Shown: piece after piece, positions 2,703-36,172 of the stretch | Layout: each line of letters opens with the position of its first letter | Numbering within the stretch: the first letter of the stretch is position 1 | Source of the DNA: the human T2T-CHM13v2.0 reference genome, Homo sapiens | Direction: 5' to 3' (one strand) | Assembly: GCF_009914755.1 (NCBI RefSeq) | Contig: NC_060932.1 | DNA length: 64,000 nt | Program-made: the position numbers and the translations under genes | Notes under the pieces: model-generated | What the model saw: the letters and a program-made list of their open reading frames with translations, nothing else | What the model was told of the DNA's origin: nothing | The model's database searches: none

Positions 2703-3139
2703 GCAGGCAAAACCCACGCTTCTGGGTAGTGGGGTAGTTTTGGCTGCTTCTATGTCTCTCTCTTCCCCTAGCCAGGCCTCTGTGGAACTGCCCCACCCTA
2801 CCCCACCTTTTTCCTCTTGCCCACCTCATGGCTGGCATTGTACATCTCAACTTCTTTTAATTTTCCAAAGTCAGACACTGCGATTGCCCCGCAGCTGCAC
2901 ATGTGAATCCCCTCCTGTCCACAGCCAGCTCCGCCCAAGTATCAGTCTGGGGAAATCTGGAAACTGAGCCCCTGACACTGTACTTTTGGGCCAAGCCCTT
3001 GCTGGGCTCCTGGCAGGACCGAGCCTGCCCCTGTGCACATGCACCCTTCACAGTGAGGAGTGCTGTCTCAGTATCCTGGGGTGACGTGGAATGGAAGAGT
3101 CTCTGCGGTCGGCTTTGGAAAAAAATAAAGCAAGAAGCT

Positions 3140-16460: not shown

Positions 16461-17624
16461 AGGTATGTACTATACAGGGCTTGGAGACCTGGACTGCTCT
16501 GGTCATGCAGATGTGAGAGGGTGATATCAGTAGAGAGTTGTAGTGAGTAAGAAAATGTTCTCAGGAAACCTCAGCTTGTCGTTATATGGCAGAAACATGT
16601 TCAGATGTGTGACTCAGGGATTACTTAATATAGTTGGGGTTGGAAAGAATGAAGAGAGTATCCCAGGCATCAGGGCTGATGGGCAAGGATGGAGACAGAA
16701 CCTTCTGGATCAGCCTGAGTCAGGAAGCAGCTCAGGATACAGAAAAGCCAGGGCTCTTGAGTTAAGGAGGGCACTGATGCAGTGCAAAGAGGAGAAGGTG
16801 AGAGAGCAGAGGAATAAGGGTGGAAGGACCAAGAGATACACCTGCCAGGGGGACTAGGGTATTAGCACCTCCGCCTTCCCTGTGCTGGGGTGAGAAGGAG
16901 GAAAAAGAAAGGACTAGTAGAAGCTGTTTCTAAGGGATCTCTGGCTTCTCCAGGAGAATTGCTTAACTTTGTTTTCGATTCAACAGCAATCCAAAAAAAT
17001 TAATATAAGCATTTTTCCCGACCATATAGATAACTACCTTAAAACCAGCCATGGATTTCATTGTCCCCATTCGCCTTGGCATTGTGGTCATGTCTGTAAC
17101 AATTAGCACTACAATCATTGACGCAGCCTAGATAGAAAAGAACAGAGGGGAAATTGCAATGTAAATGGCACACTTCTGCCAAGTGAAAACCAAATGACTT
17201 CATAGATGCTGGTGTGTTCGTGGGAGAATTGAACTTTCACAAGGCAGGTGGAAGCAGAGGCAAGCCAAACTCAGAGGACCTGTTGGATGTGCTCATGTCC
17301 TGGGTGGTTGACTGAGTTTTAGCAAAGCAATACCGACTGTAATATTGAGTTAATTTTGTTAATTTGAATTGTTTGGATTCTGTCATCTTCTTTGTATTTA
17401 ATCTTTAAATTTGTTTTGGGTTTGTGGCTGCCACAGACAGCCTGCTCTTCTCTTTCTGGACATGTGGTAAAATGCCACGGTGGGGCCCCCTTCTGTTGTG
17501 CAGAACACATGATTAGTTCTGGCCAGTGAGTTGTGAGTGCGAAGTGACACTTCATAGCATTTAGCTGCAGTGTGAGTCTCTCCAGTACCGCTTTTGCCTC
17601 TAGCAACGTTTGAGATTGCACTAA

Positions 17625-18082
17625 GTATCTCCCTGTGTGCTGCTCCAGGTGCGTCCCAACTCCTCTGTGCCTTCGCTGGAAGCAGGTCTGGAGAAAATGG
17701 GTCCATGGTCTCCCTTCCATTCTAACTTCCGGTTGGATTTGGCCAATGGGGCGTTCTGGCAGGAAACTGCAGGGCAGGAGGCGAATGGGGTCAAAAGAGT
17801 AGGCATAAGTCTCTTGGCTCCGTGTGCCAGGTCCATTTGGGTTGGCTGCAACCCTCTGTCAGTCAGTCACTGTCCAGGTGCTGGTAACTGCTTCCCCACC
17901 TTGTCCCTTCAGGGTAAGGGTGGCTAGGCATTTCTAGCCTGCTGGTACTAAACTATAACTTCTTACCACTTTGCCTAACCCCCCTCTTTGCCTGGTAAGT
18001 AGTACAAATAAATAATAAACTTCTCCTCAAAGTCTTTAGTTTAGGTGTCCTCTTTGTCTCTTGCCAGGACTTGACTGGTGCA
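17625..18082 (+). mobile_element. LTR16-type ERVL solo LTR
   Basis: cttccggttggatttggccaatgggg...tggcaggaaactgcagggcaggagg...tgccaggacttgactggtgca. Confidence 0.65.
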
Positions 18083-19666
18083 GTATTGGTGGCTGCTGGG
18101 TCAGATGAGCTCCCTGCTATTCCAAGAAACAATACATGTTTGCAGCCACTAAGATTTGAGGACTTTTGTTATTACTGCCTATCCTGACAGACTCAGGTGC
18201 TACAACTATTTAAGGGCGTAAGTATAATAAATTAATATCTAGTTTTATGTTTTCAGATGTCTTAAAACTATTTAAGGGGATCCACGCAAAATGTTGTTCC
18301 CTTAAAAGAGGGCACATCTCTCTCACGTGGAGAAATACTGGTAAGAGGAAAAGACTTTCAAGTCAACCAACTTGATGTGGTGTGCAGGTGCTGCAATTTA
18401 CTTCAGACATTGCATCTATAAAAGAAAGATAAGGTCTCGGCTGGCAAGATGGCCTAAGAGGAACAGCTCCAGTCTGCAGCTCCCAGCAAGATTGATGCAG
18501 AAGGCAGGTGATTTCTGCATTTCCAACTGAGGTACCCAGTTCATCTCATTGGGACTGGTTAGACACTGGGTGCAGCCCACAGAGGGCAAACCAAAACAGG
18601 GAGGGGCATTGAGCATGAGGAACCGTGCACTCCGGCCCAGATACTGTGCTTTTCCCATGGCATTCACAACCCGCAGACCAGGAGACCCCCTCTGGTGCCT
18701 ACCCCATCAGGACCCTGGGTTTCAAGTACAAAACTGGGAAGCCATCTGGGCAGACACTGAACTAGCTGCAAGAGCTGTTTTTTTGTTCATACCCTAGTGG
18801 CACCTGGAACACCAGCATGACAACCATTCACTCCCCTGGAAAGGGTGCTGAAGCCAGGGAGCCAAGTGGTCTGGCTAGGCAGGTCCTACTCCCACAGAGC
18901 CAGCAAACTAAGATCCACTGGCTTGAAATTCTCACTGCCAGCACAGCAGCAGCCTGAGATCAACCTGGGACAGTCGAGCTTGGGGAGGGGCATCTGCCAT
19001 TGCTGAGGCTTGAGAAGGTGGTTTTACCCCCCCCAGTGTAAACAAAGCCACCTGGAAGTTCAAACTGGGTGGAGCCCACTCAGCTCAGCAAGGCTACTGT
19101 GGCCAGACTGCCAGATTTCTCCTCTCTGGGTTAGGGCATCTTTGAAAAGAAGGCAGCAGCCCCAGTCAACCTATAGATTAAAACCCCCTTCTCCCTGGGA
19201 CAGAAAACCTGGGGGAAGCGGCAGCCATGGGCACGCTTCAGCAGACTTAAATGTCCCTGCCTGATGGCTCTGAAGAGAGCATCGGACCTCCCAGCACAGC
19301 GTTCAAGCTCTGCTAAGGGTCAGACTGCATCCTGAAGTTGGGTACCTGATGCCCTTGTATCCTTGACTGGAAGACACCTCCCAGTAGGGGCTGACAGACA
19401 CGTCATACAGGAAAGCTCTGGCTGGCATCTGGCAGATGCCCCTCCAGGATGAAGCTTCCAAAGGAAAGAACAGGCAGCAATCTTTGCTGTTCTGCAGCTT
19501 CTGCTGGTAATACCCAGGCAAATGGGGTCTGGAGTGGACCTCCAGGAAACTCCAGCAGACCTGCAGCAGAGGGGCCTGATTATTAGAAGGAAAACTAACA
19601 AACAGAAAGGAATAGCAGGTCCACTGAAAGACCCCATCTGAAGGTCACCAACATAAATCCACAAAG

Positions 19667-20660
19667 ATGGGGAGAAACCAGAGCGAGAAGGCTGAAAATT
19701 ACAAAAATCAGAATGCCTCTTCTCTGCCAAAGGATCACAACTCCTTGCCAGCAAGGGAATAAAACTGGGTGGAGAAACTGACAGAAGTAGGCTTCAGAAG
19801 GTGGGTAATAACAAACTCCTCTGAGCTAAAGGAGCATGTTCTAACCCACTGCAAGGAAGCTAAGAACCTTGAGAAAAGGTTAGACAAATTGCTAACTAGA
19901 ATAACCAGTTTAGAGAAGAACATAAATGGCCTGATGTAGCTGAAAAACACAGCACGTGGACTTCATGAAGCATACCTAAGTATCAATAGCCAACTAAGTA
20001 TCAATAGCCAAATCAATCAAGTGGAAGAAAGGATATCAGAGATTAAAGATCAAGTTAATGAAATAAAGAGAGAAGACAAGATTAGAGAAAAAAGAATAAA
20101 AAGGAACTAATAAAGCCTCCAAGAAATATGGGACTGTGAAAAGACCAAATCTACATTTGATTGGTGTACCTGAAAGGAACGGGGAGAATGGAACCAAGTT
20201 GGAAAACACTCTGCAGGATATTATCCAGGAGAACTTCCCCAACCTAGCAGGTCAGGCCAACATTCAAATTCAGGAAATACAGAGAATGCCACAAAGATAC
20301 TCCTCGAGAAGAGCAACTCCAAGACACATAATTGTCAGATTCACCAAGGTTGAAATAAAAGAAAAAATGCTAAGGGCAGCCAGAGAGAAAGGTTGGGTTA
20401 CTCACAAAGGGAAGCCCATCAGGCTAACAGTGGATCTCTCTGCAGAAACCCTACAAGCCAAAAGACAGTCAGGGCCAATATTTAACATTCTTAAAGAAAA
20501 GAATTTCCACCGCCGAATTTTGTATCTAGCCAAAGTAAGCTTCAGAAGTGAAGGAGAAATAAAATCCTTTATAGACAAGCAAATGCTGAGAGATTTTGTC
20601 ACCACCAGGCCCACCTTACAAGAACTCCTGAAGGAAGCACTCAACGTGCAGTTTTGCCAC
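19667..20660 (+). pseudogene. L1 ORF1p remnant (frameshifts and stops)
   Basis: atggggagaaacca start; peptide KRPNLHLIGVPE...IIQENFPNLA...RRATPRHIIVRFTKVE in ORF 20136-20735. Confidence 0.92.
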
Positions 20661-20709
20661 TGCAAAAACCATCGACACTATGAAGAAACTGCATCAACTA
20701 ATGGGCAAA

Positions 20710-23700
20710 ATAGACAGGATCAAATTCACACATAACAATATTAACCTTAAGTGTAAATGGGCTAAATGCCCCCAGTGAAAAGACACAGACTGGCAAATTG
20801 GATAAAGAGTCAAGACCCATCTCTGTGCTGTATTCAGGAGACCCATCTCACATGCAAAGACACACATAGACTCAAAATAAAGGGATGGAGGAATATTTAC
20901 CAAGCAAATGGAAAGCACAAAAAAAAAAAAAGCAGGAGTTGAAATCCTAATCTCTGATAAAACAGACTTTAAACCAACAAAGAAGGCCATTACATAATGG
21001 TAAAGGGATCAATGCAACAAGAAGAGCTAACTATCCTAAATATATATGCACCCAATACAGCAGTACCCAGAATCATAAAGCAAGTCCTTAGAGACCTACA
21101 AAGAGACTTAGACTCCCACACAATAATAATGGGAGACTTTAACACCCCACTTTCAACATTAGATAGATCAACAAGAGAGAAAATTAACAAGGATATTCAG
21201 GACTTGAACTCAGCTCTGGACCAAGAAGACCTAATAGACATCTACAGAACTGTCCACCCCAAATCAGCAGAATATACATTATTCTCAGCACCACATAGCA
21301 CTTACTTATTCCAAAATTGACCACATAGTTGGAAGTAAAGCACTCCTCAGCAAATGTAAAAGAAAGAACAGAAATCATAACAAACAGTCTTTCAAACCAC
21401 AATGCAATCAAATTAGAACTCAGGATTAAGAAACTCACTCAAAACCACACAACTACATGGAAACTGAACAACATGCTCCTGAGTGACTACTGGGTAAATA
21501 ACAAAATGAAGGCAGAAATAAAGATGTTCTTTGAAACCAATGAGAATGAAGACACAACGTACCAGAATCTCTAGGACACATTTAAAGCAGTGTGTAGAGT
21601 GAAATTTATAGCACTAAATGCCCACAAGAGAAAGCAAGAAAGATCTAAAGTTGACACCCTAACACCAAAATTAAAAGAACTAGAGAAGCAACAGCAAACA
21701 AATTCAAAAGCCAGCAGAAGACAAGAAATAACTAAGATCAGCGCAGAAGTGAAGGACATAGAGACATGAAAAACCCTTCAAAAACTCAATGCATCCAGGA
21801 GATGGTGTTTTGAAAAGATAAACAAAATAGATAGATAGACCGCTAGCCCGACTAATAAGACAAGAGAGAAGAATCAAATAGATGCAATAAAAAATGATAT
21901 AGGGGATATCACCACTGATTGATCTCCCAGAAATACACACTACCAACAGAGAATACTATAAACACCTCTATGCAAATAAACTAGAAAATCTAGAAGAAAT
22001 GGATAAGTTCCTGGACATACACCCTCCCAAGACTAAACCAGGAAGAAGTCAAACCCCTGAATAGACCAATAACAAGTTCTGAAATTGAGGCAGTAATTTA
22101 ATAGCCTACCAATCAAAAAAAGTCCAGGACCAGACGGATTCACAGCTGAATTCTTGCAGAGGTTCAAAGAGGAGCTGGTACCATTCCTTCTGAAACTATT
22201 CCAAACAATAGAAAAAGAGGGAATCCTCCCTAAGTCATTTTATGAGGCCAGCATCATCCTGATACCAAAACCTGGCAGAGAAGCAACAAAAAAAGAAAAT
22301 TTCAGGCCAATATCCTTGATGAACATGAATGGTGAAAATCCTTAATATAATGCAGGAAAACCAAATCCAGCAGCACATCAAAAAGCTTATCCACCACGAT
22401 GATCAAGTTGGCTTTATACCTGGGATGCAAGGCTGGTTCAACATATGGAAATCACTAAACGTAATCCACCATGTAAACAGAACCAAAGACAAAAACCACA
22501 TGATTATCTCAACAGATGCAGAAAAGGCCTTTGACAAAATTCAACACCCCTTCATGCTAAAAACTCTCAATAAACTAGGTATCAATGGAACATATCTCAA
22601 AATAATAAGAGCTATTTATGACAAATCCACAGCCAATATCATACTGAATGGGCAAAAACTGGAAGCATTCCCTTTGAAAACTGGCACAAGACAAGGATAC
22701 CCTCTCTTACCACTCCTATTCAACATAGTGTTGGAAGTTCTGGCCAGGGCAATCAGGCAAGAGAAAGAAATAAAGGGTATTCAAATAGGAAGAGAGGAAG
22801 TCAAATTGTGTCTGTTTGCAGATGACATGATAGTATATTTAGAAAACCCCACTGTCTCAGCCCAAAATCTCCTTAAGCTGATAAGCAACTTTAGCAAAGT
22901 CTCAGGGTACAAAATCGATGTGCAGAAATCACGAGCATTCCTATACACAAATAACAGACAAACAGCCAAACCATGAGTGAACTCCTATTCACAATTGCTT
23001 CAAAGAGAATAAAATACCTAGGAATCCAATTTACAAGGGATGTGAAGGACCTCTTCAAGGAGAACTACAAACCACTGTTCAAGGAAGCAAGAGAGGACAC
23101 AAACAAATGGAAAAACATTCCATGCTCATGGACAGGAAAAATCAATATCATGAAAATGGCCATACTGCCCAAAGTAATTTATAGATTCAATGCTATCCCC
23201 ATTACGCTACCATTGACTTTCTTCACAGAATTGGAAAAAACTACTTTAAAGTTCATATGTAACCAAAAAAGAGCCTGCAGAGCCAAGACAAGCCTAAGCA
23301 AAAAGAACAAAGTTGGAGCCATCATGCTACCTGACTTCAAACTATACTACAAGGCTACAGTAACCAAAACAGCATGGTACTGGTGCCAAAACAGATATAT
23401 AGACCAATGGAACAGAACAGAGGCCTCAGAAGTGACACCACACATCTACAACCATCTGATCTTTGACAAACCTGACACAAACAAGCAATGGGGAAACGAT
23501 TCTCTATTTAATAAATGATGTAGGTAAAACTGACTAGTCATATGAAGAAAACTGAAACTGGACCCTTTCCTTACACCTTATACAAAAATCAACTCAAGGT
23601 GGATTAAAGACTCAAACGTTAAGGACTAAAATCATAAAAATCCTAGGAAAAAACCTAGGCAACACCATTCAGGACATAGGCATGGGCAAAGACTTCACGT

Positions 23701-24410
23701 CTAAAACACCAAAAGCAATGGCAACAAAAGCCAAAATTGACAAATGGGATCTAATTAAACTAAAGAGCTTCTGCACAGCAAAAGAAACTATCATCAGAGT
23801 GAACAGACAACCTACAGAATGGGAGAAAATTTTTGCCATCTATCCATCTGACAAAGGGCTAATATCTAAAATCTACAAAGAACTTAAACAAATTTTCAAG
23901 AAAAAAAACCCCCGTCAAAAAGTGGGCAAAGGATATGGACAGATGCTTTTCAAAAGAAGATATTTATGCAGCCAACAAACATTTGAAAAATGCTCATTAT
24001 CACTAGTCATTAGAGAAATGCAAATCAAAACCACAATGAGATACCATCTCCTGCCAGCTAGAATGGTAGTCATTAAGTCAGGAAACAACAGATGCTGGAG
24101 AGGATGTGGAGAAACAGGAACGGTTTTACACTGTTGGTGGGAGTGTAAAGTAGTTCAACCATTGTGGAAGACAGTATGGCAATTCCTCAAAATACCATTT
24201 GACCCAGCAATCCCATTACTGGGCCAAAGGATTATAAATTATTCTACTATAAAGACACATGCACATGTATGTTTATTGTGGCACTATTCACAATAGCAAA
24301 AATTTGGAACCAACCCAAATGTCCATCAATGATAGACTGGATAAAGAAAATGTGGCACATATACACCATGGAATACTATGCAGCCATAAAAAAGGATGAG
24401 TTCATGTCCT
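20710..24410 (+). pseudogene. L1 ORF2p remnant (endonuclease, RT, C-terminal domain), disrupted
   Basis: Endonuclease motifs LNIYAPN and GDFNTPL; RT motifs GTRQGYPL and [10 protein letters not shown]; C-terminal CWRGCGE..HCWWEC; split across many ORFs. Confidence 0.95.
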
Positions 24411-25155
24411 TTGCAGGAACATGGACATAGAAACCATCATTCTCAGCAAACTAACACAAGAACAGAAAACCAACCACCACATGTTCTCACTGATAAGTGG
24501 GAGTTGAACAATGAGAAGACATGGACACAGGGAGGGGAACATCACACAGTGGGGCCTGTTGGGGGATGGCTAGGGGAGGGATAGCATTAGGAGAAATACT
24601 TAATGTAGGTGACAGGTTGATGGGTGCAGCAAACTACCATGGCACGTGTGTACCTGTGTAACAAACCTGCACATTCTGCATATGTACCCCAGAACTTAAA
24701 GTATAATTAATAAATAATGAATCCAACTCTTAGGAATGTAAGGTTTAGATAATGCATCTAAGACGCTCAGCAGATGACTTGGCATCTAGCATTTGCTCTA
24801 TAAATGATGGCTAATATTAACTCATCAGTGATAGCTACAATTAAATTGTTACTAACAATAGCCTAAAGGATTATTGCCTAGAGAGTAACATATGGAGTAA
24901 TCAGGCAGGGGATGAGGGAAAAGAAGGAGTTAGCCAGCAGGGAAGGGGTTGACTGTGGAACAAGTGTTCAGGATCAGGAGGCAGAAGACCTTTGCAGAAA
25001 GAGGAGGAGGGCCTGTGATTAGGCCAGCAATGGCAGGGTGGAGTCAGGCCAGGACCAGAGCTGATGGCTAAGGCACTCAAGTAGAAGCCGCTAGAGTATC
25101 TGTGGGGAAGCCTGGGGTATAGAGGTGATACAAGACTCACCATTTTAAAAAATGT

Positions 25156-25429
25156 TTTTTAGTGACCGGATCTCACTCTGGCACCTAGACTGGAGGGTAC
25201 TGGCATGAACTCCTGGGCTCAGATGTCCTCCCACCTCCACCTTCTGAGTAGCCGGAATTACAGGAATGAACCATCATGCTCAGGTAATTTTTTAATTTTT
25301 TTTTCTTTTGTAAACACAAGGCCTCACTATGTTGCGCAGGCTAGTCTTGAGCTCCTGGCCTCAAGCAATTCTCCTCCTTCAGCTTCCCAAAATGCTGGAA
25401 TTACAGGTGTTAGCTGCCACACCCAGCCC
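25156..25429 (-). mobile_element. AluJ-type element (diverged, small deletion)
   Basis: Both arms present; gagctcctggcctcaagcaattctcct is AluJ-like. Confidence 0.88.
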
Positions 25430-27079
25430 AAAGCTCCCCATTTTTTACTTACTTTCATCTCCGTATCTTTGATGCAAGTCACCCAAAAAAGCAGCATGGC
25501 AATTATCCCAAAAATAGGCCACCAAGGACCAGTGAACAGCCCCTGCCTTTGTCAAGATCTGATAGAGGGAGGCCTCCTGGGCACTGCCAGCCCCTGGGTC
25601 CTTCTAAGCTTTGGAATTCTCACACCTGCCAAATGCAGTGTGGAGCAGCTTAAGGGCCACCTATAGGTGAACTAGCCATGCATATGGGCCTTAGTCTTTC
25701 TCTTTGACACCTCCATTGCTCCCAGGTAAGGCGTGCTCAGAGCTGGCATTTCCTCTACTAATAAAGCTGTATCCATTGTCGTATGGTGAAAAGAATTCTG
25801 GCACCCAACAGCCAGTTTTCTTATTGATGATGATGGAAATAATAATAATAATTTTATGGCACTTTTATTCAGCAGAAGCTACAAACAGAAAATAGTGCCT
25901 TCAATCAGCAAATGTGTCGCACTCTTTTTTTTTTTTCTGTCAGAGCCCCACACTTTCACACATACAACACACACACAGAGCTCACATTTAGTGTTCTCAG
26001 TAATGCTGTGAGATACTTGTCATTTTCCTCATTCTCAGGCAAGGCACCTGAGCCTCGGGGTGATGAAAGAGATTACTTAGATGATCAGAGACTGAGAAAG
26101 TGCTGATGTTGGGACACCCAGGGAGGTCTCATTGGAGCAGGGCTAGGCTCGAATCAGGGAAGGAAGCTGAGAATCTGGAATCTCAGGCTGAGCCTGGCCA
26201 AGTGTCCACCTACAGGGAGTGACAGAGGTTAGCGCACTAAGTCCAAGAAGCTGTGACCAGGAAACCAGAGTGAGAAGAGCTGGCCAAAGTTGGTGAGGTA
26301 GGGAGAATACATGAAGGCCTGATTAGGGATAAACGTGAATATGAAAAACTAATACAAAGAGAAAGTGAGATAACCAGAGACTAAGGAGATCCAGGACTGC
26401 CAGAGGCGAGTTTGAGGCAGAATTCTCCCCAAATGCCACTGGTAAGACACTCTCATTAGGATGGAGTTGGTCCCTAAAGCAGATTGACATCACCGGACAC
26501 TTTGACTCTAATTCCAGGCCAGTGCTATATCCCAAGATCCTTATCCTGAGGTTAATGTGTGTACAGAATTTTGTGTCTGTGTGTTTGCAGATGTGTGTGC
26601 TCTTGGGAAAGTGGTTCATAGCTTTTATTATATAATCAAAGGGATCTTTGTGCTCTCCGATGTAAGCAACTCAGCTGCCTTCACTACATGTGCTTGCCGC
26701 CAGCCCATGACCAACTTCATTCCGAAATTTAATGTCCCGCCCAATCGTTTCTAGTCCTGGAGGATTTTCCATAAGCCACTCTTCTAACTCACCCTCAATG
26801 AATTGATCGATTGATCGATAAGAACTTCTTTGGTGTCTAGGCCAGTACTAAACACCACAATAAATATAGCAATTACTTAAGGCACAGTCCCACCCCCAAA
26901 GACCCCCTTAAGATCTGGGCTTGGAGACAAGAGACAGACAGCATGAGGGGCTTGAGAGTAAAAGACAGCATAAAAGTCAGTGAGACATTGAGATGTTACG
27001 TGTCAGAAGAGGAGAGATGAGTGAGATGTGGGTTACCAGGTGGCCACACGTGTTGGCTGTGGTCAGGTGGGAAAAACTG

Positions 27080-27285
27080 GGACCTTGGACCCAGACCATC
27101 TGGATTTTAGTTCTCACTACCACCTGCTGCACACTGTTGGGTGAATGATTAATGTCTCTCATTTGCAAAAATAGGGATCATAGCATTTATGCTGCAGGTG
27201 TTGTTACCAACACAATGGAGGTTTATTTAAGTTCACGTGGGTGCAAGTGCCTAGGTCAGGCAAATAGTCCACAATGCTCCAAGCT
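27080..27285 (+). mobile_element. MIR
   Basis: ctcatttgcaaaaatagggatcatagca...ggtgttgtt. Confidence 0.55.
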
Positions 27286-27299
27286 CATCATGAGCACCA

Positions 27300-27995
27300 T
27301 AGGTATTTATTTTAAAAGTATGTATTGTTGGATTTTCATATCTATGAATGTCTTATAAATTGAATCACGCTTTGCAAGCTTTTTCCCTCCCAAGTATATT
27401 GCATTGGTCACCTATGTTAATAGAGGGAGCTCTGGTTAATTCTTTTGCACTTATTATACATTGCCACACTGTATTTATACCTTCTTCTGTTGGTAGATTT
27501 TTCCCCCCAAATATTTACTATTATAAATATTTCTGTTATAATCATACTTGCAGATGTTCAAGAGTTTCTCCTGAAGTGGATTTGCTGGCTGGTAGAGTAT
27601 TTGCATTTTATGCTTTGTCAGAAAACATTATTTTCCAAGGAGTTGGACTAATTTACACTGTCACCTCTGGTGTATGAAAATTCCATTGCCTTGCTGATAT
27701 TTGATATTGTCAGACTCAGGAAATTCTGTGTGTGATTTTGATGGCACTAAATGGTAGATGTTTTGATTTCCATTCCTCTAATAACTATTGTGAATAAGTA
27801 TCTTTATTATAATTGTCTTGGCTGTACCAGTGTTTTTATGTTAAATGCCTCGTCATATCTTTGTCCTGATTTCTTATAGATTCATAAAAGTTCTTTATAT
27901 ATTCTGAATACTAACCCTTCCTGTTTGTGTAGCAAACATCTTCTCACAGTTCTGGCTTGCTTTTTGAATTTCTTTATGGTCTCTTGATGAACACC
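27300..27995 (-). mobile_element. Old L1ME fragment
   Basis: Antisense ORF2-end sequence (ttctttatatattctgaatactaaccct; aacatcttctcacagt). Confidence 0.65.
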
Positions 27996-28380
27996 TGTAA
28001 TTCTTGAAATGAACTACTACTTAAGGCAAGGCTATGAAGACCCAACTTCTTGGTTACTTAATAGACTTTCATAATAAATGAGAACTTCAAGGATGGTAGG
28101 GTGGGCTGAATACATATGACTGTCCCGAAAAGCTTAGAGAAAGAAAATGACAAGCTCAGTCCTTTAAATTCTCATTCAAGGTAATGTCAGGAAACCAGAT
28201 GTTTCTATAATTGCACTAAAATATTATCTCATCTACCATAGCAATATAACCAAGGTACCTAAAAATTCATTGCAAAATTTGATCTTGTAGTTTGAGAATT
28301 ACTACACAAATTGAATTTATGACTGTTCTAAGTTTCTTATGTAAAAGTGAGGGCACTGATTAAGGAAGAATGGGACATGA

Positions 28381-28545
28381 GCTTTGGCAGGTGGATATTT
28401 TGGTCAATTTGGATGAACTTAAGTACCAAGATGCTCCCTCCTTAAAAAATTCCAGTTACCAGCAGAAGCAGCCCATTGTCCTCTACCCGAAACATCAGCC
28501 TATCCTTGCTTAAAGGTCAGCTAAAAACCCCCACTGAAGCAGTAA
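28381..28545 (+). repeat. Inverted duplication arm A (partner 30256-30420)
   Basis: Ungapped reverse-complement alignment, ~137/165 identical by hand count. Confidence 0.93.
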
Positions 28546-29323
28546 CCTTGCATAGTATATTGATGTCTTTTAAGACCCACCTTCACCGCTCCCCATTGCC
28601 TACAGGGCTCAGGAAAATGGTTGTTATTTTACATAGTGAAAGAATGACAAGGTCGAGCTAATTCAAACAATAAATTCAAACAAACAATAAAAAATAAAAT
28701 AAAGAAAAAACAGGAGTATGTGTGGCAATAGATTTCAGGAGTGCCAGATCAGAGAAAAAGAAACACTGTGTAGAATTGAGTCAAATTTATTGATATGAGT
28801 GCACTTAATGAAGAGTCTAGATTTGGTGTGTTAGCTAGAACAGCTGAGAAGTGCCCTAACAGTGTGCTTGGAATGTTGATTGCAACTTGGAATCAGTGGA
28901 ATTACAGTAAATGATGAAGCCACATTTCTTCGGCATAATATAGAGGAAGAAATCCAACCTCTGAAAAGACATGGGCAAATTGGAGTGGATGTGTCGCATG
29001 TGAGACCCACTCATCCTCACTGTAATATCTCCCTGGAGGACTCAGGGGACACTTTCTTCACCAAAAAGCAAACAAAGAAATAAAAACCAAACAGCTACAA
29101 TAAAACAAAACAAACACACTGGGAAATAGATTGGTGAAGGGGAAGCCAGCCTCTTTGAAAAGCTCTATAATGCCTGTTCTCTGTAGGAAGGATGGGTCAT
29201 GATAGATGGTTCTGTAATTTTGATGGGGATGATGGTACCCAGTGATGCCAGAAGCCGAGGGGCAGCCCTTAACCAACAAAACCACAGTGGGCACCTTTGC
29301 TGAAAAAAATGCAGTAGGGCCTA

Positions 29324-29498
29324 ATGAGCAGCTAATATCAATGAATATTTGTTAAGCATTTATAATGCACTAAGCGTTCTGAAAAATGCTTTCTGTGCAT
29401 CCTCCTCATTGCATTGTCACAGTGACAATCAGAGGGAAGCGCTACAGTATTTTCCCATTTTACAGATGAAGCTCTTGGGGCTCACAAACATTAAATAA
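29324..29498 (-). repeat. Inverted duplication arm B, MIR-derived (partner 31453-31627)
   Basis: Ungapped reverse-complement alignment, ~150/175 identical by hand count. Confidence 0.93.
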
Positions 29499-30255
29499 CC
29501 TTCTTTGATGAGAGAGGGCAAGTTATTTAACATCTCTAAGGTTGACTTATGGTAATCATAATGGGTAGACTTCAAAGGAGTCTTTGGTAGAACGTAATTC
29601 ATTTGTGGAATGCTTAGCAATGAAATTAGTTTGTTACTAACTCAGTCTCTAGGGCTGAAAGTGAAGTTTTACTTGATATAAAGAACTGAAAAAGTTCTAA
29701 GACCCATGACCCAAATCTTGGCACCAAAAGTTGTGGCCCTTCGCCTTATTCTAAGAACTGAGGCAGTTCACCAACCCAGAGACTCTTGATTAAAGGAAAG
29801 ACTAGGTGACTCTAAGGAAGGACTCTACAACCCTGATGCAAGTTTATGCTGCATATTTGATTTCCTAAACTTCACCCACAGAGACCTATAGCCATTTATT
29901 AGGACTTGTGTGCATGGAAGAAAGGGAACTAACCAGCCTTTGGTGGGGTAGATTACTAAATATTCGCTGAGAGCTGACACTTATCCCCGAAGATCACAGA
30001 CAGACAGTACTGTGGCCCACCAATTAGAGCAAGGCCTGATGGAGATCAGAGGCCACCCCACACAGCATGGGTGTAGCCCATCTTACGTTGGGGGTGAGAT
30101 CACTCAATGTCTTGGCTTTGTGTGGAGGTCTCTAACTCATCTCCCTCAGCCCCTTGCACGGATCCAGATTTCGCCTCTTGCCTCTGTACAACTATGGAAA
30201 TAGAGGTTCCAATCACTGGGGATTGGCAGAAGCCCAAGACTTTAGCATAGCTTCA

Positions 30256-30420
30256 TGACTGCTGTAGGTGAGGTCTTTAGCTGGTCTTTAAGCAAGGATA
30301 AGCTGGTGTTTTGCGTAGAGGAGAATGGGCTGCCTCTGCTGGCAAGTGGAATTTTTTAGGGAGGGAGCATCATTGTACTTAAATTCATCCAAATTCACCA
30401 AACTGTCCTCCTTCCAATTC
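30256..30420 (-). repeat. Inverted duplication arm A'
   Basis: Reverse complement reads ...tggtgaatttggatgaatttaagtacaatgatgctccctccctaaaaaattcc..., matching 28381-28545. Confidence 0.93.
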
Positions 30421-30899
30421 TCAGATTTGTGTTTTCACTTCATTTTTTACTTCTAGGGATTTCTCTTGTTCTCTTGTCAATTCAGTGCATGCATTAAAAA
30501 ATGTGGTTACTTTTCTGAATTTTATCAGCACTTCTAGATGCTTTACAAAGAGGGGGAATTATATTACCTACTCTGAGAAAAAATTTTTTTATCATAGTAC
30601 CAACAGCACTTAGCACTTTTCATTTGTGCCATAAGTAGATACATACATGTGTTTTCCATTCTACGAGATGCTGAGTTCCTGGTACAGGTCAGGGACTGAC
30701 TGTGTCCTTTATTTGTTTTAATTTTTTTTTATGAGCTCAGTTCAGCAAACACATAAGGAGTGCTTACTCGGTGTTAGGCACCATGCTGGGTGCTGAGGAA
30801 GCAAGCCTGTGGTTCTTGTATTTAATGTTTTCTGTAAGAACAACTCTCTAGCTAGCACCCTCCATTTAGTGGGATCTCTCTAAGTGCTGAAACATCCCA

Positions 30900-31290
30900 T
30901 GAGCATTCTGTGTTTTTGCCTATGCTGCTTTTTCCCATCTGAAATACCTTCTTCTCCACCCTTTTCCTAGCCTACTGCTACCTGCTTCTGAAGGATACTA
31001 AGCCCCACCGTTTTCATGAATCTTACACTATATTTAATACTAGAGAGGCTCTGTCTCCTCTCTTTCTTTGAATATAATATGTCATTTGCACTGATCGATG
31101 TAAAATGTGAGTACTTATTTCTTCATGTAATTTAATATTGTCCACCTCCCCCCTCCGATCCCCTGCTAGATTTCAAGCTCCCTGAAGATGAAGGCTGAAT
31201 CCTACACCTCGCTTGTATCCTCCATGGCTCATTGAACAAGTGCTAGCTAGCTACATGGAGACTGCTCAATAAATATTGAATAACTCACGA
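30900..31290 (+). mobile_element. L2 3' fragment
   Basis: ctgctagatttcaagctccctgaag...ttgtatcctcca...ctgctcaataaatattgaat. Confidence 0.65.
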
Positions 31291-31441
31291 GGGACTCAAT
31301 AAATAACGATTGCTTAATTGATTAGCTCCGTCAATAAATCTTGCTTTGAACAGAGGTACAGCCATTGAAGATACTCAAAAGGCAATCTCGGTCACTGTGC
31401 CTCTGGATAGGGGAAAGCTCCATGAATGTAAGATCTGGTGG

Positions 31442-31627
31442 GAGAAGGCAACTTATTTAACCTCTCTAAGCCCCGGGAGCTTCATCTGTAAAATGGGAAA
31501 ATACTGTAGTGCTTCCGTGTCATTGTCACTGTGACAATGTAATGAGGATGATGCACAGAAGGCATTTATCACACTGCCTAGTCCATTATAAATTCTTAAT
31601 AAACATTAATTGATATTAGCTACTCAT
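31442..31627 (+). mobile_element. MIR, containing inverted duplication arm B' (31453-31627)
   Basis: ggcaacttatttaacctctctaagcc...cttcatctgtaaaatggg MIR core. Confidence 0.85.
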
Positions 31628-33308
31628 AGATCTTAAGAACTGGATTGAAAGAAACACCATGAGAAAACTTTCAATCTGTAGCAATATTACCCAATAGCTT
31701 CATGTTGTAGAGACACTGTACCACTTTACTCCCCTAATATTCTTTTGAGGTCACCAAGAGCGTAAGTAATCTACAAGTGAGTGGGTTGTAGGTTCATTTT
31801 GGAGACGACTGTCATTAACTCCTGATACATGGTCCCTTCTGTGATCCTGACTGTGTGATGGGAAGGAGTGGTAGATGCATTTACAGACCTCGTTGCTCCA
31901 CAAGCATGCTCTAAGAACTTACTAGGTACCAGGCACTGTGCTGGACACCAGGATTTCAGCTGTAAATTAGGCAGACAAGTTTCTTGCTTAAAAGTGCAGT
32001 CAAAGTGTCCTTACAAACCATGGAAAGGGGCCATCAGCAGCTATGGATGCTCGTGACCAGAGCCCCTTAGTCTGTTGGAGGAGGGGCTGTCAGGAAAGAC
32101 TTCCAAGAGGAAGTGACACTTGGGATGAGACCAAATAGATGAGATGGGAGTGGCGTGGTACCCCCCTCCCCACAGCAGCTGCCATATGGGTGGAAGATGG
32201 AGAAGACAGTGTGTCCATGGCTACTTCAGACCCAGCCCGATGGGGACCAAGCTACAGTCATGGACGTTCTGGCTGTGCCTCCTGTGCAATGGAATCAGGA
32301 GGTCAGTAGCTCAAAGAAATGCCTCCACTCAGGATCTCTGCATCCCCTCTCTCCTTCCTGTGCCACTCAGCTACCTCCTGGGAGAGAGAACACAGAAACC
32401 TGATTTCTCCCCACTTGATGCTTGAAAGGGGAGGGAAGAAGAGAAGGTGACTGCCTGGATCTCTTACTTGGGATGGAGTGTTGTCATGTAAACAACTTTT
32501 CACCCTAGGATTTTTTGGGGCTGTCAAGAAGTGACAGCCAGAGCTGGGGACACTGGCTGGAGAGGCCATTAAAGGCCATGAGAGGTGATTTCCCACCTGG
32601 CTTCTTCCTCCAGAACTTAGCACTTGCAGCAGTCTCTTCCACCCTACCCCCAACCCACATACATCCTCTCCCCACATAAACATCTCCTTCAGTGGTACCT
32701 ACCGACTTTTAGCTTTCTAAACCAGACTGAAAGAAAAACATTGATGAGTTGCCAATCTACAGCATTTCACCCACATTTATCTCATTTAATACTCTTAACC
32801 TTGAAATTCATTCATTCATTCCTGTAACAAATATGTGTCAAGAACCAACTCTATACCAGCTGTAATCTTTTTTATGCTATTGTCATCTTATCAATGAGGG
32901 TGTGGAGCCTCACAAAGGTTAAGTGACCTACCTTGACTCACACATTGAGTAAATAATAAAGTCAGTGAACAAATTGTAGAGATCAAGTCAGTTGAGCTGA
33001 CTTCAAATACTTTTTCCACTACAGTGGAAAACACTTCTCTAATTGATTGGTCTCTGGATTATTCCATATGGAGTTTTAAGGAAAAAAAAAGATTAAATTC
33101 TGGGCATGCCAAGCAAACAGTGGCTAAGTGCTTTCATCAAAGAGTTCATTGGCAAATTACATTCACTGCCTATCTACCCTACTGGGAACCAAACAAAACA
33201 AAAATGTGAAGTCAAGTCCTTTGTCTTTCCTCAATGCCTACTCCTGTCACTGTTTCCAAGAAAGGCTCTGATACTTACACAGAGGTATAAGCAACACAAA
33301 TACCTTGA

Positions 33309-33523
33309 TCAAGACCAGCCTGGCCAACATGGTGAAACTCCATCTTTACTAAAAATGCAAAAATTAGCTGGGTATGCTGGCAGGTGCCTGTAATCCCAGC
33401 TACTCAGGAGGCTGAGGCAGGAGAATCTCTTGAGCCTGAAAGGTGGGAGTGCAGTGAGCCAAGATCACACCACTGCATTCCAGCCTGGGCGAGAGAGTGA
33501 GGCTCCATCTCAAAAAAGAAAAA
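33309..33523 (+). mobile_element. 5'-truncated AluS
   Basis: Begins at tcaagaccagcctggccaacatggtgaaac; TSD-like aaataccttga / aaatgcttga. Confidence 0.92.
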
Positions 33524-33818
33524 ATGCTTGAAATGCTCCTCCATCGTGGATGAGAATTGTGAGTATCATGTCCTGCAGGGGTGGGGCTGGAACACTTGCT
33601 GCCAGTCCCACAGGGGAGGTCTGCTTTTGCAAACTCAGCAATAATGGAAAGCACCTGTTCAGTCTTAGGCATGGTAGAAATTTGTGGGGGAGGGAGAAAT
33701 GCAGAACCCACAAGCCATGTTGTGTTGGAAGAGAGAGAAAGTAAAAGTTTGAAACACCGTGGCGTCATAAAGCCAGCCGGAAGAACCGATTTTGGGGATT
33801 AAGAGTGACTACATTGTT

Positions 33819-34108
33819 GGCCGGACGCGGTGGCTCATACCTGTAATCCCAGCACTTTGGGAGGCTGAGGCAGGCAGATCACGAGGTCAGGAGTTCAAGA
33901 CCAGCCTGACCACCATGGTGAAACCTCATCTCTACTAAAAATACAAAAATTAGCCGAGTGTGGTGGCACACGCCTGTAGTCTCAGCTACTCAGGAGACTG
34001 AGGCAGGATAATTCCTTGAACCTGGGAGGCAGGGGCTGCAGTGAGCTGAGATCACACCACCGCACTCCACCCTGGGCAACAGAGCGAGACTTCTTCGTCT
34101 CCAAAAAA
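33819..34108 (+). mobile_element. Full-length Alu (AluSg-like)
   Basis: gatcacgaggtcaggagttc diagnostic; perfect 17-bp TSD aagagtgactacattgt (33801-33817 and 34107-34123). Confidence 0.96.
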
Positions 34109-34244
34109 GAGTGACTACATTGTCACATTCACTTTTTCCTTTTCCAACCCCCTCCGTGCATGTGCAAAACCATTAGAAAAGCAACAAGCAGGGCTGGTGA
34201 AGGAATCAGGGGAAGGCTTCTCTCATACTCTCTCTCCCACATAG

Positions 34245-34600
34245 GAGCATAGTCCCCGAGTTTTAAGTCTTACTGCTGCCACTTTCTGATCGAGTGTCTT
34301 TTAGCAATTTATACTCTGAGTCACAATTTTCTCATCTGCAGAATGAGTGTAATAATAGCAGCCTTGCAGAGTCATCGTGAGGACCCAGTGTAACCATCTG
34401 CATATGAGATGGGAGCAGCCAGCACCGTGGAATGAGGCAAGGTTTGGAGGGGAAGAGCTCACGACATGCCTCTAAACACTTAGCTATGTGACCATGAGGA
34501 ACTCACCACCCCTCCAGCTTCATCCACCTCACTTTTCACATGAGAAAAGTAACAAACTTGTGCTTTGTTGGAATCAAAGGCGGTAGCAAGTAAATGTAAT
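34245..34600 (+). mobile_element. Two MIR fragments
   Basis: ttttctcatctgcagaatgagtgtaataatagca and a second weaker core near 34480-34560. Confidence 0.55.
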
Positions 34601-35647
34601 AATGCTTTTAAACTGTCAAGTCCTATTCAGATGAAAAGATACACCATTGCCTTTCTCCTAAGCAGGGCATTGTGCCTCCATGAATACCTACAATCAAGGT
34701 GTTCCCAGGCCCCATGTATACACTGCCAGTGCCAGTGCTGGGGGATTCCAAAGGAGCAGAAGTTGTGGGCCCCTCCCAGCTGGAGAATAACATCAAGGTA
34801 ACCCGAAGCAGGATGTAAGCACAGTTTAGACTGCGCTGTCTCAGTGACATGCTGGTGTAAGGAGGAGGCACAGGATGTGGGAAAGGCCCGTAGATGAGGC
34901 CATGGAGGAGCTGAGGCTGCGATGGTTCCAGGAGGATGAGCATCCTGGGTGTTCCAGCCTCAATGCCTCCAGAGGCAGACAAAGGCTGGGCAAAAGGAGT
35001 TTGCCTGAGAGATGCGCAGATGTTCTCATCAAGCACAAGGGAGAGAGTGAGAATATGAGTCAGGACAGGCAGCAAGGCCCAGAAAGGGTCCATTGTTGTG
35101 CAAGCCACCCCTGTTTGTTTGCAGCTGGGCTCAACCCTGCTGAGGGGCCAGGAAGCTGCGGTGTATATCTGCTCATTCCAGTGCCACATAGAATTGACAG
35201 TGCTTCCTGTCAGGAACTTTCTGACATTCCCTTGGCCAGAGAATGTTCTCAGGCCAAGAGACACAGAGAGCTGAGGACTGCGGGCAGGTAGCCCGAGGGG
35301 ATGTGAATGGGACACCGACAGCATCTGCTAGCTTTGGCAGATGGGAGCTAGGGCCACTCCATGCTAAGGGACAGCATGAACAAAATGAAGGAGAAGATGG
35401 GTTGAGTGAGGAGCTCGCCAAGCTTTGCTCCAGAGGGAGAGAGTATTTGAAATTGGGACTATCTGCAAAAATCACCAAATATATGAAGGGCAGCAAGGAA
35501 ACTCTAAGAGGGGAAAATGGGCAGCAGTGTGGAGCTGCTGCACACCACTGATGATGGGAGGTGTTAGAGAGGGAAATGCCTCTTGTTCTGGGGTGATGAT
35601 GATCTTGCAGCACCGGCCTGGGCCGGCAGTTGGACAATGGTGACCGG

Positions 35648-36172
35648 ATGAGTGGCCAGTCATGGTTCCACTCAATGCTGGTGAATGAACTATCCCCTGG
35701 CAGTTTGCAAAGCTCAGGTCCACAGCTGACTGTGGAACTGGAAGTGCCACAGCACCCACCCCTGCCGCCAAGCCGTGCCCCACTTCTGCTGCTAAATGGA
35801 GAAAGGATGGAGCCTACATTAGAAACCAGAGACCTGGCAAAGTGGGTGGGACAGGAGGTTCCTGGCAAGCGACAGACAGAACTACAGAATGCCGTAAGAG
35901 AAAGGAAGGTGGTTGGTCTTTCGGTCAGAAGTGCTGGCTGGACATGGAGCACTGCTACGGTGACCAGCGCAGCCACCACTAGGAACAGCGACTCTCCCAG
36001 ACCCTCCCTCACCTGCCACCCATCGTAGTGGCTGCTCCTCTTGAACGGCTGGGGCGAGAGGGATACTGCATGCGATGGAACTGATAAACCAGTTCAAATA
36101 GCATTAGACTCACTCACCGATACTGTCTCATTGAAACACATTGCTCATTTATTCCTCTTCGTCATCCTTTGA
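35648..36172 (+). other. Candidate spliced small ORF (35648-35893 joined to 36029-36172), unrecognised product
   Basis: In-frame ATG at 35648; donor GCC|GTAAGA at 35894; pyrimidine-rich acceptor ...ctccctcacctgccacccatcgtAG at 36028; phase-0 135-nt intron; TGA at 36170-36172. Confidence 0.25.

What the first reader, a model, noticed from the sequence alone, without database searches (positions are those of the whole stretch)
28381..31627. Two interlocked inverted duplications (A-B-A'-B') forming a crossed, pseudoknot- or shufflon-like cassette
Seen: A (28381-28545) is the ungapped reverse complement of A' (30256-30420), and B (29324-29498) is the ungapped reverse complement of B' (31453-31627). 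The two pairs have similar length (165 and 175 bp), identity (~83% and ~86%) and span (~2.0 and ~2.3 kb), but different symmetry axes, so they cross rather than nest. Arm starts are ~0.93-1.2 kb apart. A is ERVL-derived and B is MIR-derived, so a repeat annotation would list unrelated fragments and miss the pairing. Inference: a single inversion or duplication cannot produce this arrangement. It suggests either multi-step template switching or gene conversion, or a maintained structure such as crossed long-range RNA duplexes (pseudoknot or mutually exclusive pairing, ADAR substrate) or two overlapping invertible segments. I saw no clear G-U wobble bias among the A mismatches, so RNA-level selection is not shown.
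Basis: partly seen in the sequence, partly recalled or inferred. Interest (0 to 1): 0.85.

Follow-up and report, generated by a model that had tools for sequence, protein, structure and literature searches.

The report
Two old interlocked inverted patch duplications
Two short stretches of non-coding human DNA were each copied in reverse orientation about 2 kb away tens of millions of years ago, most likely by a copying slip during DNA replication; the pattern is real but shows no sign of a virus remnant or of a function.

Summary
A 28378-28543 is the reverse complement of A' 30258-30423 (139/166 identical). B 29324-29498 is the reverse complement of B' 31453-31627 (150/175). Neither pair has an indel, and the order is A-B-A'-B'.

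Each arm's only strong match in the whole genome is its local partner. B and B' belong to a high-copy dispersed family, which I name MIR from recall. None of 22 other copies comes close: alignment scores 18-32 against 125. So these are secondary local copies, not same-family insertions.

A new detail: B is followed after 7 nt by a 35-nt direct copy (30/35) of 31436-31470, which overlaps B'. The B locus is therefore a fold-back, a template-switch signature.

No retroviral domain, LTR or Rfam family was found, so the "ERVL" label for A is unverified.

Mismatches show no G-U bias. Divergence (JC 0.17) suggests about 40-70 Myr, as a minimum age.

Two similar-sized overlapping pairs will usually cross by geometry alone. 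Only their closeness and equal age suggest one multi-step event.

Verdict: an ordinary fossil of replication-type rearrangement, of low interest.

The parts
28378..28543 (.). Arm A: inverted partner of A'. Its origin is unclassified and no other genomic copy was found.
   Evidence: 139/166 identical to the reverse complement of 30258-30423, 13 transitions, 14 transversions, 0 indels; the partner is the only match in the genome and in the 264 kb sampled.
29324..29498 (.). Arm B: inverted partner of B'. It is a MIR-like SINE sequence (named from recall) and probably the derived copy.
   Evidence: 150/175 identical to the reverse complement of 31453-31627, 13 transitions, 12 transversions, 0 indels; its 18-mer occurs 591 times in the genome; 0 of 22 other family copies are comparable; collinear alignment of other copies passes position 180 in 0 of 22 here.
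29499..29540 (.). A 7-nt junction (29499-29505) followed by piece D1 (29506-29540), a direct copy of 31436-31470. Together with B it forms a fold-back.
   Evidence: 30/35 identical, score 25 against a null maximum of 14 in 200 shuffles; it is the only significant result among 16 flank tests; the best match in 22 other family copies is at most 21/35, and there are 0 hits at 26/35 or better in 258 kb.
30258..30423 (.). Arm A': inverted partner of A.
31436..31470 (.). Source stretch of D1. It overlaps the left end of B' by 18 nt (31453-31470), so that stretch is represented in both orientations at the B locus.
31453..31627 (.). Arm B': inverted partner of B. It is the more complete MIR-like copy and the probable source.
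   Evidence: collinear alignments of other family copies run past the arm end in 5 of 22 at this locus, against 0 of 22 at the B locus.

Best explanation
These are two short inverted 'patch' copies made by replication-type template switching (the FoSTeS/MMBIR kind, or serial strand switching inside one fork) in an ancestor of humans.

Proposed steps:
- A nascent strand left its template and copied about 170 nt from the opposite strand roughly 2 kb away, then returned.
- At the B locus it switched strands once more. It first copied the reverse complement of 31453-31627 and then 35 nt of the same place in direct orientation (31436-31470), leaving a fold-back.
- The A/A' patch arose the same way, probably in the same episode. 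That inference rests on equal divergence and on how rare such events are locally.
- Since then all copies have decayed neutrally inside lncRNA introns.

Shown: the arms, their exclusivity in the genome, the fold-back, and the absence of wobble bias.
Inferred: the mechanism, the B' to B direction, the single episode, and an age of roughly 40-70 Myr as a minimum.
For: - Arms confirmed with sharp ends, and no homology between any spacers or flanks.
- Each arm's only strong genomic match is its partner. In 264 kb sampled, the best other match to B' is 61.6% over 151 nt and there is none for A or A'. None of 22 other copies carrying B's 18-mer aligns with a score above 32, against 125 for B versus B'.
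- Fold-back: D1 matches 31436-31470 at 30/35, against at most 21/35 in 22 other copies and 0 hits at 26/35 or better in 258 kb. One source stretch is thus used in both orientations, which neither a simple duplication nor gene conversion predicts.
- Direction: other family copies stay collinear past the arm end in 5 of 22 at the B' locus and 0 of 22 at the B locus.
- Equal age: K2P is 0.184 for A/A' and 0.159 for B/B', each with a standard error of about 0.035 (the standard error is my calculation).
- Rarity: in 278,002 bases examined, the only other non-family local inverted pair of 120 nt or more within 5 kb is one event in L017. Two independent overlapping events have a crude chance of about 0.02 (n = 1, so the upper bound is about 0.09).
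- That L017 event also carries an extra direct copy, so it is complex in the same way.
- Template switching is documented to create inverted repeats, including paired ones (PMC5453318, passages read). Templated and fold-back insertions are described in PMC8421209 and PMC11724301 (abstract openings in the search listing only).
Against: - By recall of the MIR consensus, the outer end of the B/B' homology falls within about 2 nt of the element's terminus. A random DNA-templated patch would do that only about 3% of the time. The coincidence fits two independent MIR insertions better. I could not confirm the terminus with tools (one search was uninformative).
- Documented short template switches are tens of bp, and their templates are close by (PMC5453318). 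Here the patches are 166-217 bp and the templates about 2 kb away.
- No microhomology is visible at the junctions, though tens of Myr of decay would erase it.
- No outgroup sequence was available, so no empty site has been seen, and the direction for A/A' is unknown.
- Zero indels against 52 substitutions is mildly odd: P is about 0.002-0.016 under a recalled ratio of 0.08-0.125 indels per substitution.
Confidence: 0.5

Rival explanations
1. Gene conversion, or concerted evolution, between pre-existing inverted copies of old repeats. Two MIR insertions, and two copies of another ancient repeat, happened to lie crossed. Each pair was homogenised by intrachromosomal conversion until about K = 0.17 ago.
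For: - By recall, the B/B' homology ends at the MIR terminus, as expected if the homology is limited to the element.
- The tracts are short with sharp ends.
- In the L017 comparator the arms (42/261 mismatches) look slightly younger than the ~875-bp element that splits one arm, whose closest genomic copies are 76-79% identical. This hints at conversion between nearby inverted arms.
Against: - D1, only 35 nt and in direct orientation, is equally close to the B' locus (30/35). Conversion of such a small piece is implausible, and without conversion an old independent copy should match at about 21/35 or less, as the 22 others do.
- Arms of 166-175 bp are at or below the homology length that I recall mammalian conversion needing.
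- A has no detectable family.
- High identity runs to the very last bases of the arm (18 of the first 20), leaving no flanking homology to anchor a conversion.
Confidence: 0.2
2. A single micro-inversion that duplicated both breakpoints. This would be either a staggered-break inversion or one template switch-and-return of type 3-1-4-2, giving X-Y'-M'-X'-Y in one step.
For: - It is the known one-step route to two crossed inverted repeats (PMC1885836: 6 inversions with both breakpoints duplicated, sizes 46 bp to 1.9 kb, median 321 bp, mean identity about 88%; PMC5453318: type 3-1-4-2, 1% of events).
- Arm sizes and equal divergence fit.
Against: - The model puts A next to B and A' next to B'. 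Here they are separated by 780 and 1029 bp of unrelated old sequence that has no source elsewhere in the genome.
- Extended-duplicate variants predict that the middle spacer matches the reverse complement of the outer spacers, and it does not.
- Two successive one-sided staggered inversions would leave one pair direct (logic).
- The model does not explain D1.
Confidence: 0.07
3. A maintained structure: crossed long-range RNA duplexes (a pseudoknot, or an ADAR substrate) in the lncRNA precursors, or two overlapping invertible DNA segments like a shufflon.
For: - All four arms lie in the 17128-36117 intron of LOC105379316 (- strand), and A, B and A' lie in the last intron of LINC03023 (annotation given with the finding).
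- Each pair would form a stable duplex if co-transcribed: cofold about -224 to -229 kcal/mol against about -76 to -82 with a shuffled partner.
- There are no indels in either pair.
Against: - Half of the mismatches are transversions that break pairing on either strand (14/27 and 12/25). G-U-compatible changes are 7 versus 6 for the two strands in both pairs.
- B' lies outside LINC03023.
- No Rfam family matches.
- No recombinase or other protein domain was found: 0 of 10 ORF pieces.
- By recall, 84-86% identity over about 170 bp is too low for homologous inversion.
- The duplex energy follows trivially from complementarity.
Confidence: 0.03
4. Plain coincidence of same-family transposable elements (two ERVL fragments and two MIRs) inserted independently, with no secondary event.
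For: B and B' carry a hallmark of a high-copy family (591 genomic copies of the 18-mer). Inverted MIR pairs about 1.8 kb apart occur elsewhere (L021, L022).
Against: - Those control pairs share only 27 nt or nothing.
- None of 22 other copies resembles B or B' beyond partial 66-100% stretches of 18-127 nt.
- No other copy of A exists at detectable similarity.
- No ERV feature was found.
Confidence: 0.02

Closest known systems
Replication-based template switching (FoSTeS/MMBIR; the four-point short template-switch model, PMC5453318)
   Same: It makes an inverted copy of nearby sequence, leaves a fold-back that uses both strands of one source, produces several pieces in one small region, and can create paired inverted repeats.
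   Different: The patches here are 166-217 bp and the templates about 2 kb away, against tens of bp and close range in the published short events. There are two separate insertion sites 780 bp apart. No junction microhomology is left to see.
Staggered-break inversions with inverted duplications at both breakpoints (Drosophila, PMC1885836)
   Same: Two crossed inverted duplications of non-repetitive or unique sequence, a similar size range (46 bp to 1.9 kb) and similar identity (about 88%).
   Different: There the duplicates abut at each junction and flank an inverted segment. Here 780 and 1029 bp of unrelated DNA separate them, and inversion of the middle cannot be tested.
The local inverted duplication in L017 (chr8, about 77 kb upstream)
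   Same: Same neighbourhood, arm identity 81-86%, arms about 1-2 kb apart, unique in the genome, and accompanied by an extra direct copy.
   Different: Its arms are nested (one block against a partner split by a later ~875-bp element with an 8-9-nt target duplication), not crossed.
Inverted Alu pairs as dsRNA/ADAR substrates
   Same: Inverted repeats inside one primary transcript that could pair.
   Different: Those arise from independent insertions of a young family. Here the arms are secondary copies, and there is no evidence of editing or of selection.
Bacterial shufflons and other invertible segments
   Same: Only the picture of overlapping inverted repeats.
   Different: There is no recombinase and no conserved crossover site, the arms are 14-16% diverged, and this is a human germline locus.

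Membership tests
ERVL / LTR retrotransposon remnant (arm A) | Retroviral core-gene remnant (gag, pro, pol) in or next to the arm | tested here: not met
   0 of 10 stop-free ORF pieces (43-78 aa, chosen from the 30 listed, 28370-31531) reach any Pfam cut-off. The only hits are chance-level (E 0.028-0.22) and none is retroviral.
ERVL / LTR retrotransposon remnant (arm A) | Similarity to other genomic copies of an LTR or internal sequence | tested here: inconclusive
   A and A' have no match other than each other. However, one search shows the same search also finds nothing for a stretch I take (from recall) to be an L2 3' end, so repeats of that age are invisible to it. No named repeat library was available.
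ERVL / LTR retrotransposon remnant (arm A) | Two inverted elements sharing LTR and internal parts (a-b / a'-b') | tested here: not met
   the sequences directly flanking B and B' and flanking A and A' are unrelated, and no spacer pair is homologous.
MIR SINE (arms B, B') | Membership of a high-copy dispersed family | tested here: met
   the 18-mer from B occurs 280 + 311 times against 0 + 0 for the reversed control; the 22 copies examined align partially around it. The name MIR and the orientation are from recall.
MIR SINE (arms B, B') | Arm end coincides with the element terminus | tested here: inconclusive
   From recall, yes, within about 2 nt; pairwise alignments among the 22 copies (230 of 231 pairs span the motif) never reach beyond -93 on that side, while they reach beyond +100 on the other side. 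This is compatible with the coincidence but does not locate the terminus.
One-step crossed duplication (staggered-break inversion; template switch type 3-1-4-2) | Two inverted duplications in crossed order | tested here: met
One-step crossed duplication (staggered-break inversion; template switch type 3-1-4-2) | The duplicates of the two breakpoints abut at each junction | tested here: not met
   The spacers are 780 bp (A to B) and 1029 bp (A' to B'). They are unrelated to each other and to the middle spacer and have no source elsewhere.
One-step crossed duplication (staggered-break inversion; template switch type 3-1-4-2) | The middle segment is inverted relative to the ancestor | not testable with these tools
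Multi-step replication template switching (FoSTeS/MMBIR type) | Inserted pieces templated from nearby sequence, with changes of strand | tested here: met
   the B locus consists of the reverse complement of 31453-31627, then 7 nt, then a direct copy of 31436-31470.
Multi-step replication template switching (FoSTeS/MMBIR type) | Microhomology at the junctions | tested here: inconclusive
   none is visible at the arm ends, but the ancestral sequence is unknown and about 8% decay per copy would blur it.
Multi-step replication template switching (FoSTeS/MMBIR type) | Empty sites in lineages that split off before the event | not testable with these tools
   No primate or mammal orthologues could be fetched.
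Shufflon / site-specific invertible segment | Recombinase gene and conserved crossover sites | tested here: not met
   no protein domain in 10 ORF pieces; the arms are 14-16% diverged along their whole length.
dsRNA / ADAR substrate under selection | Both arms lie in one transcript and are complementary | tested here: met
   Annotation given with the finding (the intron of LOC105379316 holds all four arms); cofold is about -224 to -229 kcal/mol.
dsRNA / ADAR substrate under selection | Substitutions biased towards changes that keep pairing (G-U) on the transcribed strand | tested here: not met
   7 versus 6 G-U-compatible changes for the + and - strands in both pairs, with 14 and 12 transversions.
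dsRNA / ADAR substrate under selection | Editing clusters or duplex reads | not testable with these tools
LINC03023 appears in 0 papers of the library.
Gene conversion between inverted repeats | Lower-identity family homology continues beyond the converted tract in both copies | tested here: not met
   the flanks are unrelated. The only extra homology is D1, which lies in the opposite orientation to what a continued tract would give.

The most novel reading that the evidence does not exclude
The locus may be a roughly 50-Myr-old fossil of one replication accident in which the nascent strand made two separate excursions, 780 bp apart, onto the opposite strand about 2 kb ahead. Each excursion copied an Okazaki- or nucleosome-sized patch (166 and 175+35 nt). 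A similar complex event 77 kb away would then mark this part of 8p21.3 as a site prone to such switching. Bolder still, the indel-free arms may be kept because crossed duplexes in the LOC105379316 precursor matter.
Probability: 0.1. Interest if true: 0.5.

Novelty: new member of a known kind. Interest (0 to 1): 0.22.

Why it matters
The finding matters mainly as a clean worked example. Repeat annotation by family would list unrelated old fragments here and miss that they are secondary inverted copies. Such copies record ancient template-switch events at a scale (about 170 bp copied from about 2 kb away) between the short-range events catalogued in ape genomes and the large rearrangements studied in disease.

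It also shows that a crossed A-B-A'-B' picture needs no special machinery. And it corrects a virus-remnant label: nothing retroviral could be demonstrated here. No functional consequence is indicated.

Tried and rejected
1. A nested self-insertion of a 1.1-kb element (outer A...B', inner B...A'). Rejected because the middle spacer is unrelated to the outer spacers.

2. Two inverted LTR elements, each keeping one LTR. Rejected because the flanks of B and B' are unrelated.

3. Two successive staggered inversions. Rejected by logic: an inversion that contains one copy of the other pair would turn that pair direct.

4. A cassette family. Two chr1 loci show the B 18-mer inverted about 1.8 kb apart (listing). 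When fetched, they share only 27 nt (L021) or nothing more (L022) with themselves, and almost nothing with this locus.

5. D1 as an independent MIR core. Rejected.

6. Late retroposition of B' RNA. No A-tail is seen next to B (read) and, by recall, L2 activity was long over. Set aside.

7. Naming A. Pfam on ORF pieces, Rfam, tRNA scan, genome searches and nhmmer/blastn on 264 kb all came back blank.

8. The transition:transversion ratio of 26:26 looked odd. It gives p = 0.018 against a 0.667 transition share but p = 0.157 against 0.6, so I do not treat it as solid.

9. RefSeq soft-masking lists no repeat of 100 bp or more between 25434 and 33305. It carries no family names, so it was of no help.

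10. Locating the MIR terminus from pairwise alignments of other copies was uninformative.

11. A literature search for LINC03023 found 0 papers.

Supplementary files of the papers cited were not seen. Supplemental Fig. S1 of PMC5453318 and Figures S2-S5 of PMC1885836 may show variants that bear on the one-step models.
Full report
1. OBSERVATION

The repeat finder on 27000-33000 returns two inverted pairs. I1 is 29324-29498 with 31453-31627 (175 nt, 86%). I2 is 28378-28543 with 30258-30423 (166 nt, 84%). Gapped blastn of 25000-35000 against the window gives the same limits, with E = 4.1e-53 and 1.65e-45.

Base by base:
- A/A' has 139/166 identical: 13 transitions, 14 transversions, no indel, K2P 0.184.
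- B/B' has 150/175 identical: 13 transitions, 12 transversions, no indel, K2P 0.159.

The order is A, B, A', B'. The spans are 2046 and 2304 bp, and the spacers are 780, 759 and 1029 bp. I aligned every pair among the nine pieces (four arms, three spacers and two 1-kb flanks; 36 pairs) locally in both orientations. Only the two arm pairs stood out (z about 84-91, next best 4.8).

2. NOT ORDINARY SAME-FAMILY REPEATS

Genome searches with each arm plus flanks, and with the whole 6 kb, find the local partner as the only strong match.
- A and A' have no other hit at all.
- B' has three partial hits of 48-136 nt at 71-90%.
- In 264 kb (the window plus 20 x 10 kb of chr8 flanks), the best other matches to B' are 61.6% over 151 nt, 65.3% over 75 nt and 80.6% over 31 nt. 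A and A' have none. nhmmer finds only self and partner for all four arms.

An 18-mer taken from B occurs 280 + 311 = 591 times in the genome, against 0 + 0 for the reversed control. B and B' therefore belong to a high-copy dispersed family, which I recognise from recall as the MIR SINE. I fetched 22 other copies that carry this 18-mer: 18 sampled from the 100 listed, plus 4 in two chr1 loci. Their local alignment scores against B or B' are 18-32, against 125 for B versus B'. None of the 22 is comparable.

Two chr1 loci in which the 18-mer occurs inverted about 1.8 kb apart serve as a control for independent inverted pairs. They share 27 nt in one case and nothing further in the other.

The arms are secondary local copies.

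3. A NEW PIECE: THE B LOCUS IS A FOLD-BACK

Seven nucleotides after B lies 29506-29540 (D1), a direct copy of 31436-31470 at 30/35 identical. That source stretch overlaps the left end of B' by 18 nt.
- Of 16 tests (70-nt flanks of all four arms against the partner locus, both orientations, 200 shuffles each), only this one is significant: score 25 against a null maximum of 14.
- It is not an independent family copy. The best ungapped match of D1 or of its source in the 22 other copies is at most 21/35. There is no match at 26/35 or better in 258 kb.

The B locus therefore reads: reverse complement of 31453-31627, then 7 nt, then direct 31436-31470. One source stretch appears in both orientations.

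Other family copies stay collinear beyond the arm end in 5 of 22 at the B' locus and 0 of 22 at the B locus. This modestly favours B' as the source and B+D1 as the copy.

4. IS THERE A VIRUS REMNANT?

I found none.
- The 30 ORFs of 40 aa or more over 27500-32500 are short, as expected for non-coding DNA.
- Of 10 stop-free pieces covering the arms and spacers, 0 reach a Pfam cut-off and none hits a retroviral family.
- Rfam gives one chance hit (E = 0.81), and there are no tRNAs.
- A has no LTR-like relatives.
- A model with two inverted LTR elements is excluded, because the flanks of the arms are unrelated.

One caveat applies. A 741-bp stretch (30700-31440) that I take from recall to contain an L2 3' end also finds nothing in the genome search. 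These tools therefore cannot see repeats of that age. The label "ERVL-derived" for A is unverified rather than disproved. No family can be named from an LTR, from print or from a core gene.

5. AGE

Pooled, the arms show 52 mismatches in 341 positions. That gives a JC distance of 0.170 with a standard error of about 0.024 (my calculation). With recalled human-lineage rates of 1.2-2.2e-9 per site per year, T = K/2mu comes to about 39-71 Myr. Sampling error widens this to roughly 28-90 Myr.

This is long after the family of B was active, since other copies are only about 60-75% alike over partial lengths.

The age is a minimum, because conversion between arms would rejuvenate them. A cross-check comes from a second local inverted duplication 77 kb upstream.
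- It lies in L017. The block 3943-4205 pairs with 1978-2121 and 2991-3109, at 81-86% identity.
- One arm is split by an ~875-bp dispersed element flanked by an 8-9-nt duplication.
- The closest of that element's 40 scored genomic copies are 76-79% identical.

Arms with this level of divergence therefore pre-date, or at least are not much younger than, an old transposon insertion.

6. MECHANISM

One-step routes to crossed inverted repeats do exist.
- Staggered-break inversions duplicate both breakpoints. In PMC1885836 (passages read), 6 inversions have both breakpoints duplicated; sizes run from 46 bp to 1.9 kb, median 321 bp.

Both, however, put A against B and A' against B'. Here 780 and 1029 bp of unrelated sequence intervene. 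That sequence has no source elsewhere in the genome. Extended-duplicate variants predict spacer homologies that are absent. Two successive one-sided inversions would leave one pair direct. These models also leave D1 unexplained.

What fits best is replication-type template switching that made two inverted patch copies. The strand change inside the B locus is its direct trace.

Are the two patches one episode? Two points suggest it.
- Their divergences are equal within error.
- In 278,002 bases examined, the only other non-family local inverted pair (120 nt or more, within 5 kb) is the L017 event. That gives a crude chance of about 0.02 that an independent second event overlaps the first (n = 1, upper bound about 0.09).

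The crossing needs no explanation of its own. With spans of 2046 and 2304 bp, nesting is possible for only 258 of 4350 overlapping offsets.

7. AGAINST THIS READING

- By recall, the outer end of the B/B' homology lies within about 2 nt of the MIR terminus. That suits two independent insertions later homogenised by conversion better than a random patch. I could not verify the terminus.
- Conversion has its own problems. The 35-nt D1 is equally similar to its source but in the other orientation. The arms are short. High identity runs to the last bases (18 of the first 20).
- The absence of indels against 52 substitutions is mildly unusual: P is about 0.002-0.016 under recalled indel ratios. It stays unexplained.

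8. FUNCTION

All four arms lie in one intron of LOC105379316 (- strand). A, B and A' lie in the last intron of LINC03023, and B' is 132 nt beyond its end (annotation given with the finding).

Each pair would form a stable duplex if co-transcribed: about -224 to -229 kcal/mol against about -76 to -82 with a shuffled partner, while cross pairs give only -73 to -90 kcal/mol, close to their own shuffled controls. That follows from complementarity alone.

Mismatches that would keep a G-U pair number 7 for + strand RNA and 6 for - strand RNA in both pairs. A further 14 and 12 are transversions. There is thus no sign of selection on pairing. Nothing supports invertible segments: no recombinase was found, and the arms are 14-16% diverged.

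9. VERDICT

This is a real, non-chance structure that repeat annotation by family would miss. It is an old, apparently neutral product of a known kind of rearrangement. It is not a demonstrable virus remnant, and its crossed layout is largely a matter of geometry. Interest is low. Orthologous sequences from other primates would settle direction, age and mechanism.

Noticed in passing
L017 1978-4280 (G000:C8:21125978-21128280, about 77 kb upstream of the window): A second genome-unique local inverted duplication of similar identity. Block 3943-4205 pairs with 1978-2121 (81-82%) and 2991-3109 (86%). The partner is split by an ~875-bp dispersed element with an 8-9-nt flanking duplication (3223 first-look candidates genome-wide; scored copies 70-79% identical). 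There is also a direct copy, 3824-3939 similar to 4164-4280 (76%). The arms look slightly younger than the element that splits them, which may mean conversion between arms.
   Followed up: partly
window 31170-31321 (inside 30880-31340): The last exon of LINC03023, including several AATAAA-type motifs, lies in what I recognise from recall as the 3' end of an old L2 LINE. The genome search finds no other copy, so the name is unverified.
   Followed up: partly
window 29412-29429 and 31521-31538: An 18-nt near-perfect palindrome sits inside both B and B' (17/18 identical between the arms), so each arm can also fold on itself (D9).
   Followed up: no
window 27836-28008: A dispersed repeat with many genomic copies at 70-90% identity (29 of the 39 non-local hits fall here). 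From recall it looks like the 3' part of an old L1. It is unrelated to the arms.
   Followed up: no
window 29481-29498 compared with 31453-31470 and 29523-29540: The last 18 nt of B carry 6 differences from the source, while the direct copy D1 carries 1 over the same stretch. This is a local cluster of changes in the stem of the fold-back (read).
   Followed up: no
arms A/A' and B/B': Transitions and transversions are equal (26:26), and there is no indel against 52 substitutions. Both are mildly unusual for neutral decay: p = 0.018 or 0.157 depending on the assumed transition share, and P(no indel) is about 0.002-0.016 under recalled ratios.
   Followed up: partly
L021 2445-2471 and 4256-4282 (G000:C1, about 17.567-17.569 Mb): Two MIR-like copies inverted 1.8 kb apart share a perfect 27-nt stretch and nothing else. 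I used them as a control.
   Followed up: yes
L010 4595-4721 and 4836-4955 (G000:C8:21452595-21452955): A small local direct duplication (79%, 131 nt) with almost no other copies in the 278 kb examined.
   Followed up: no
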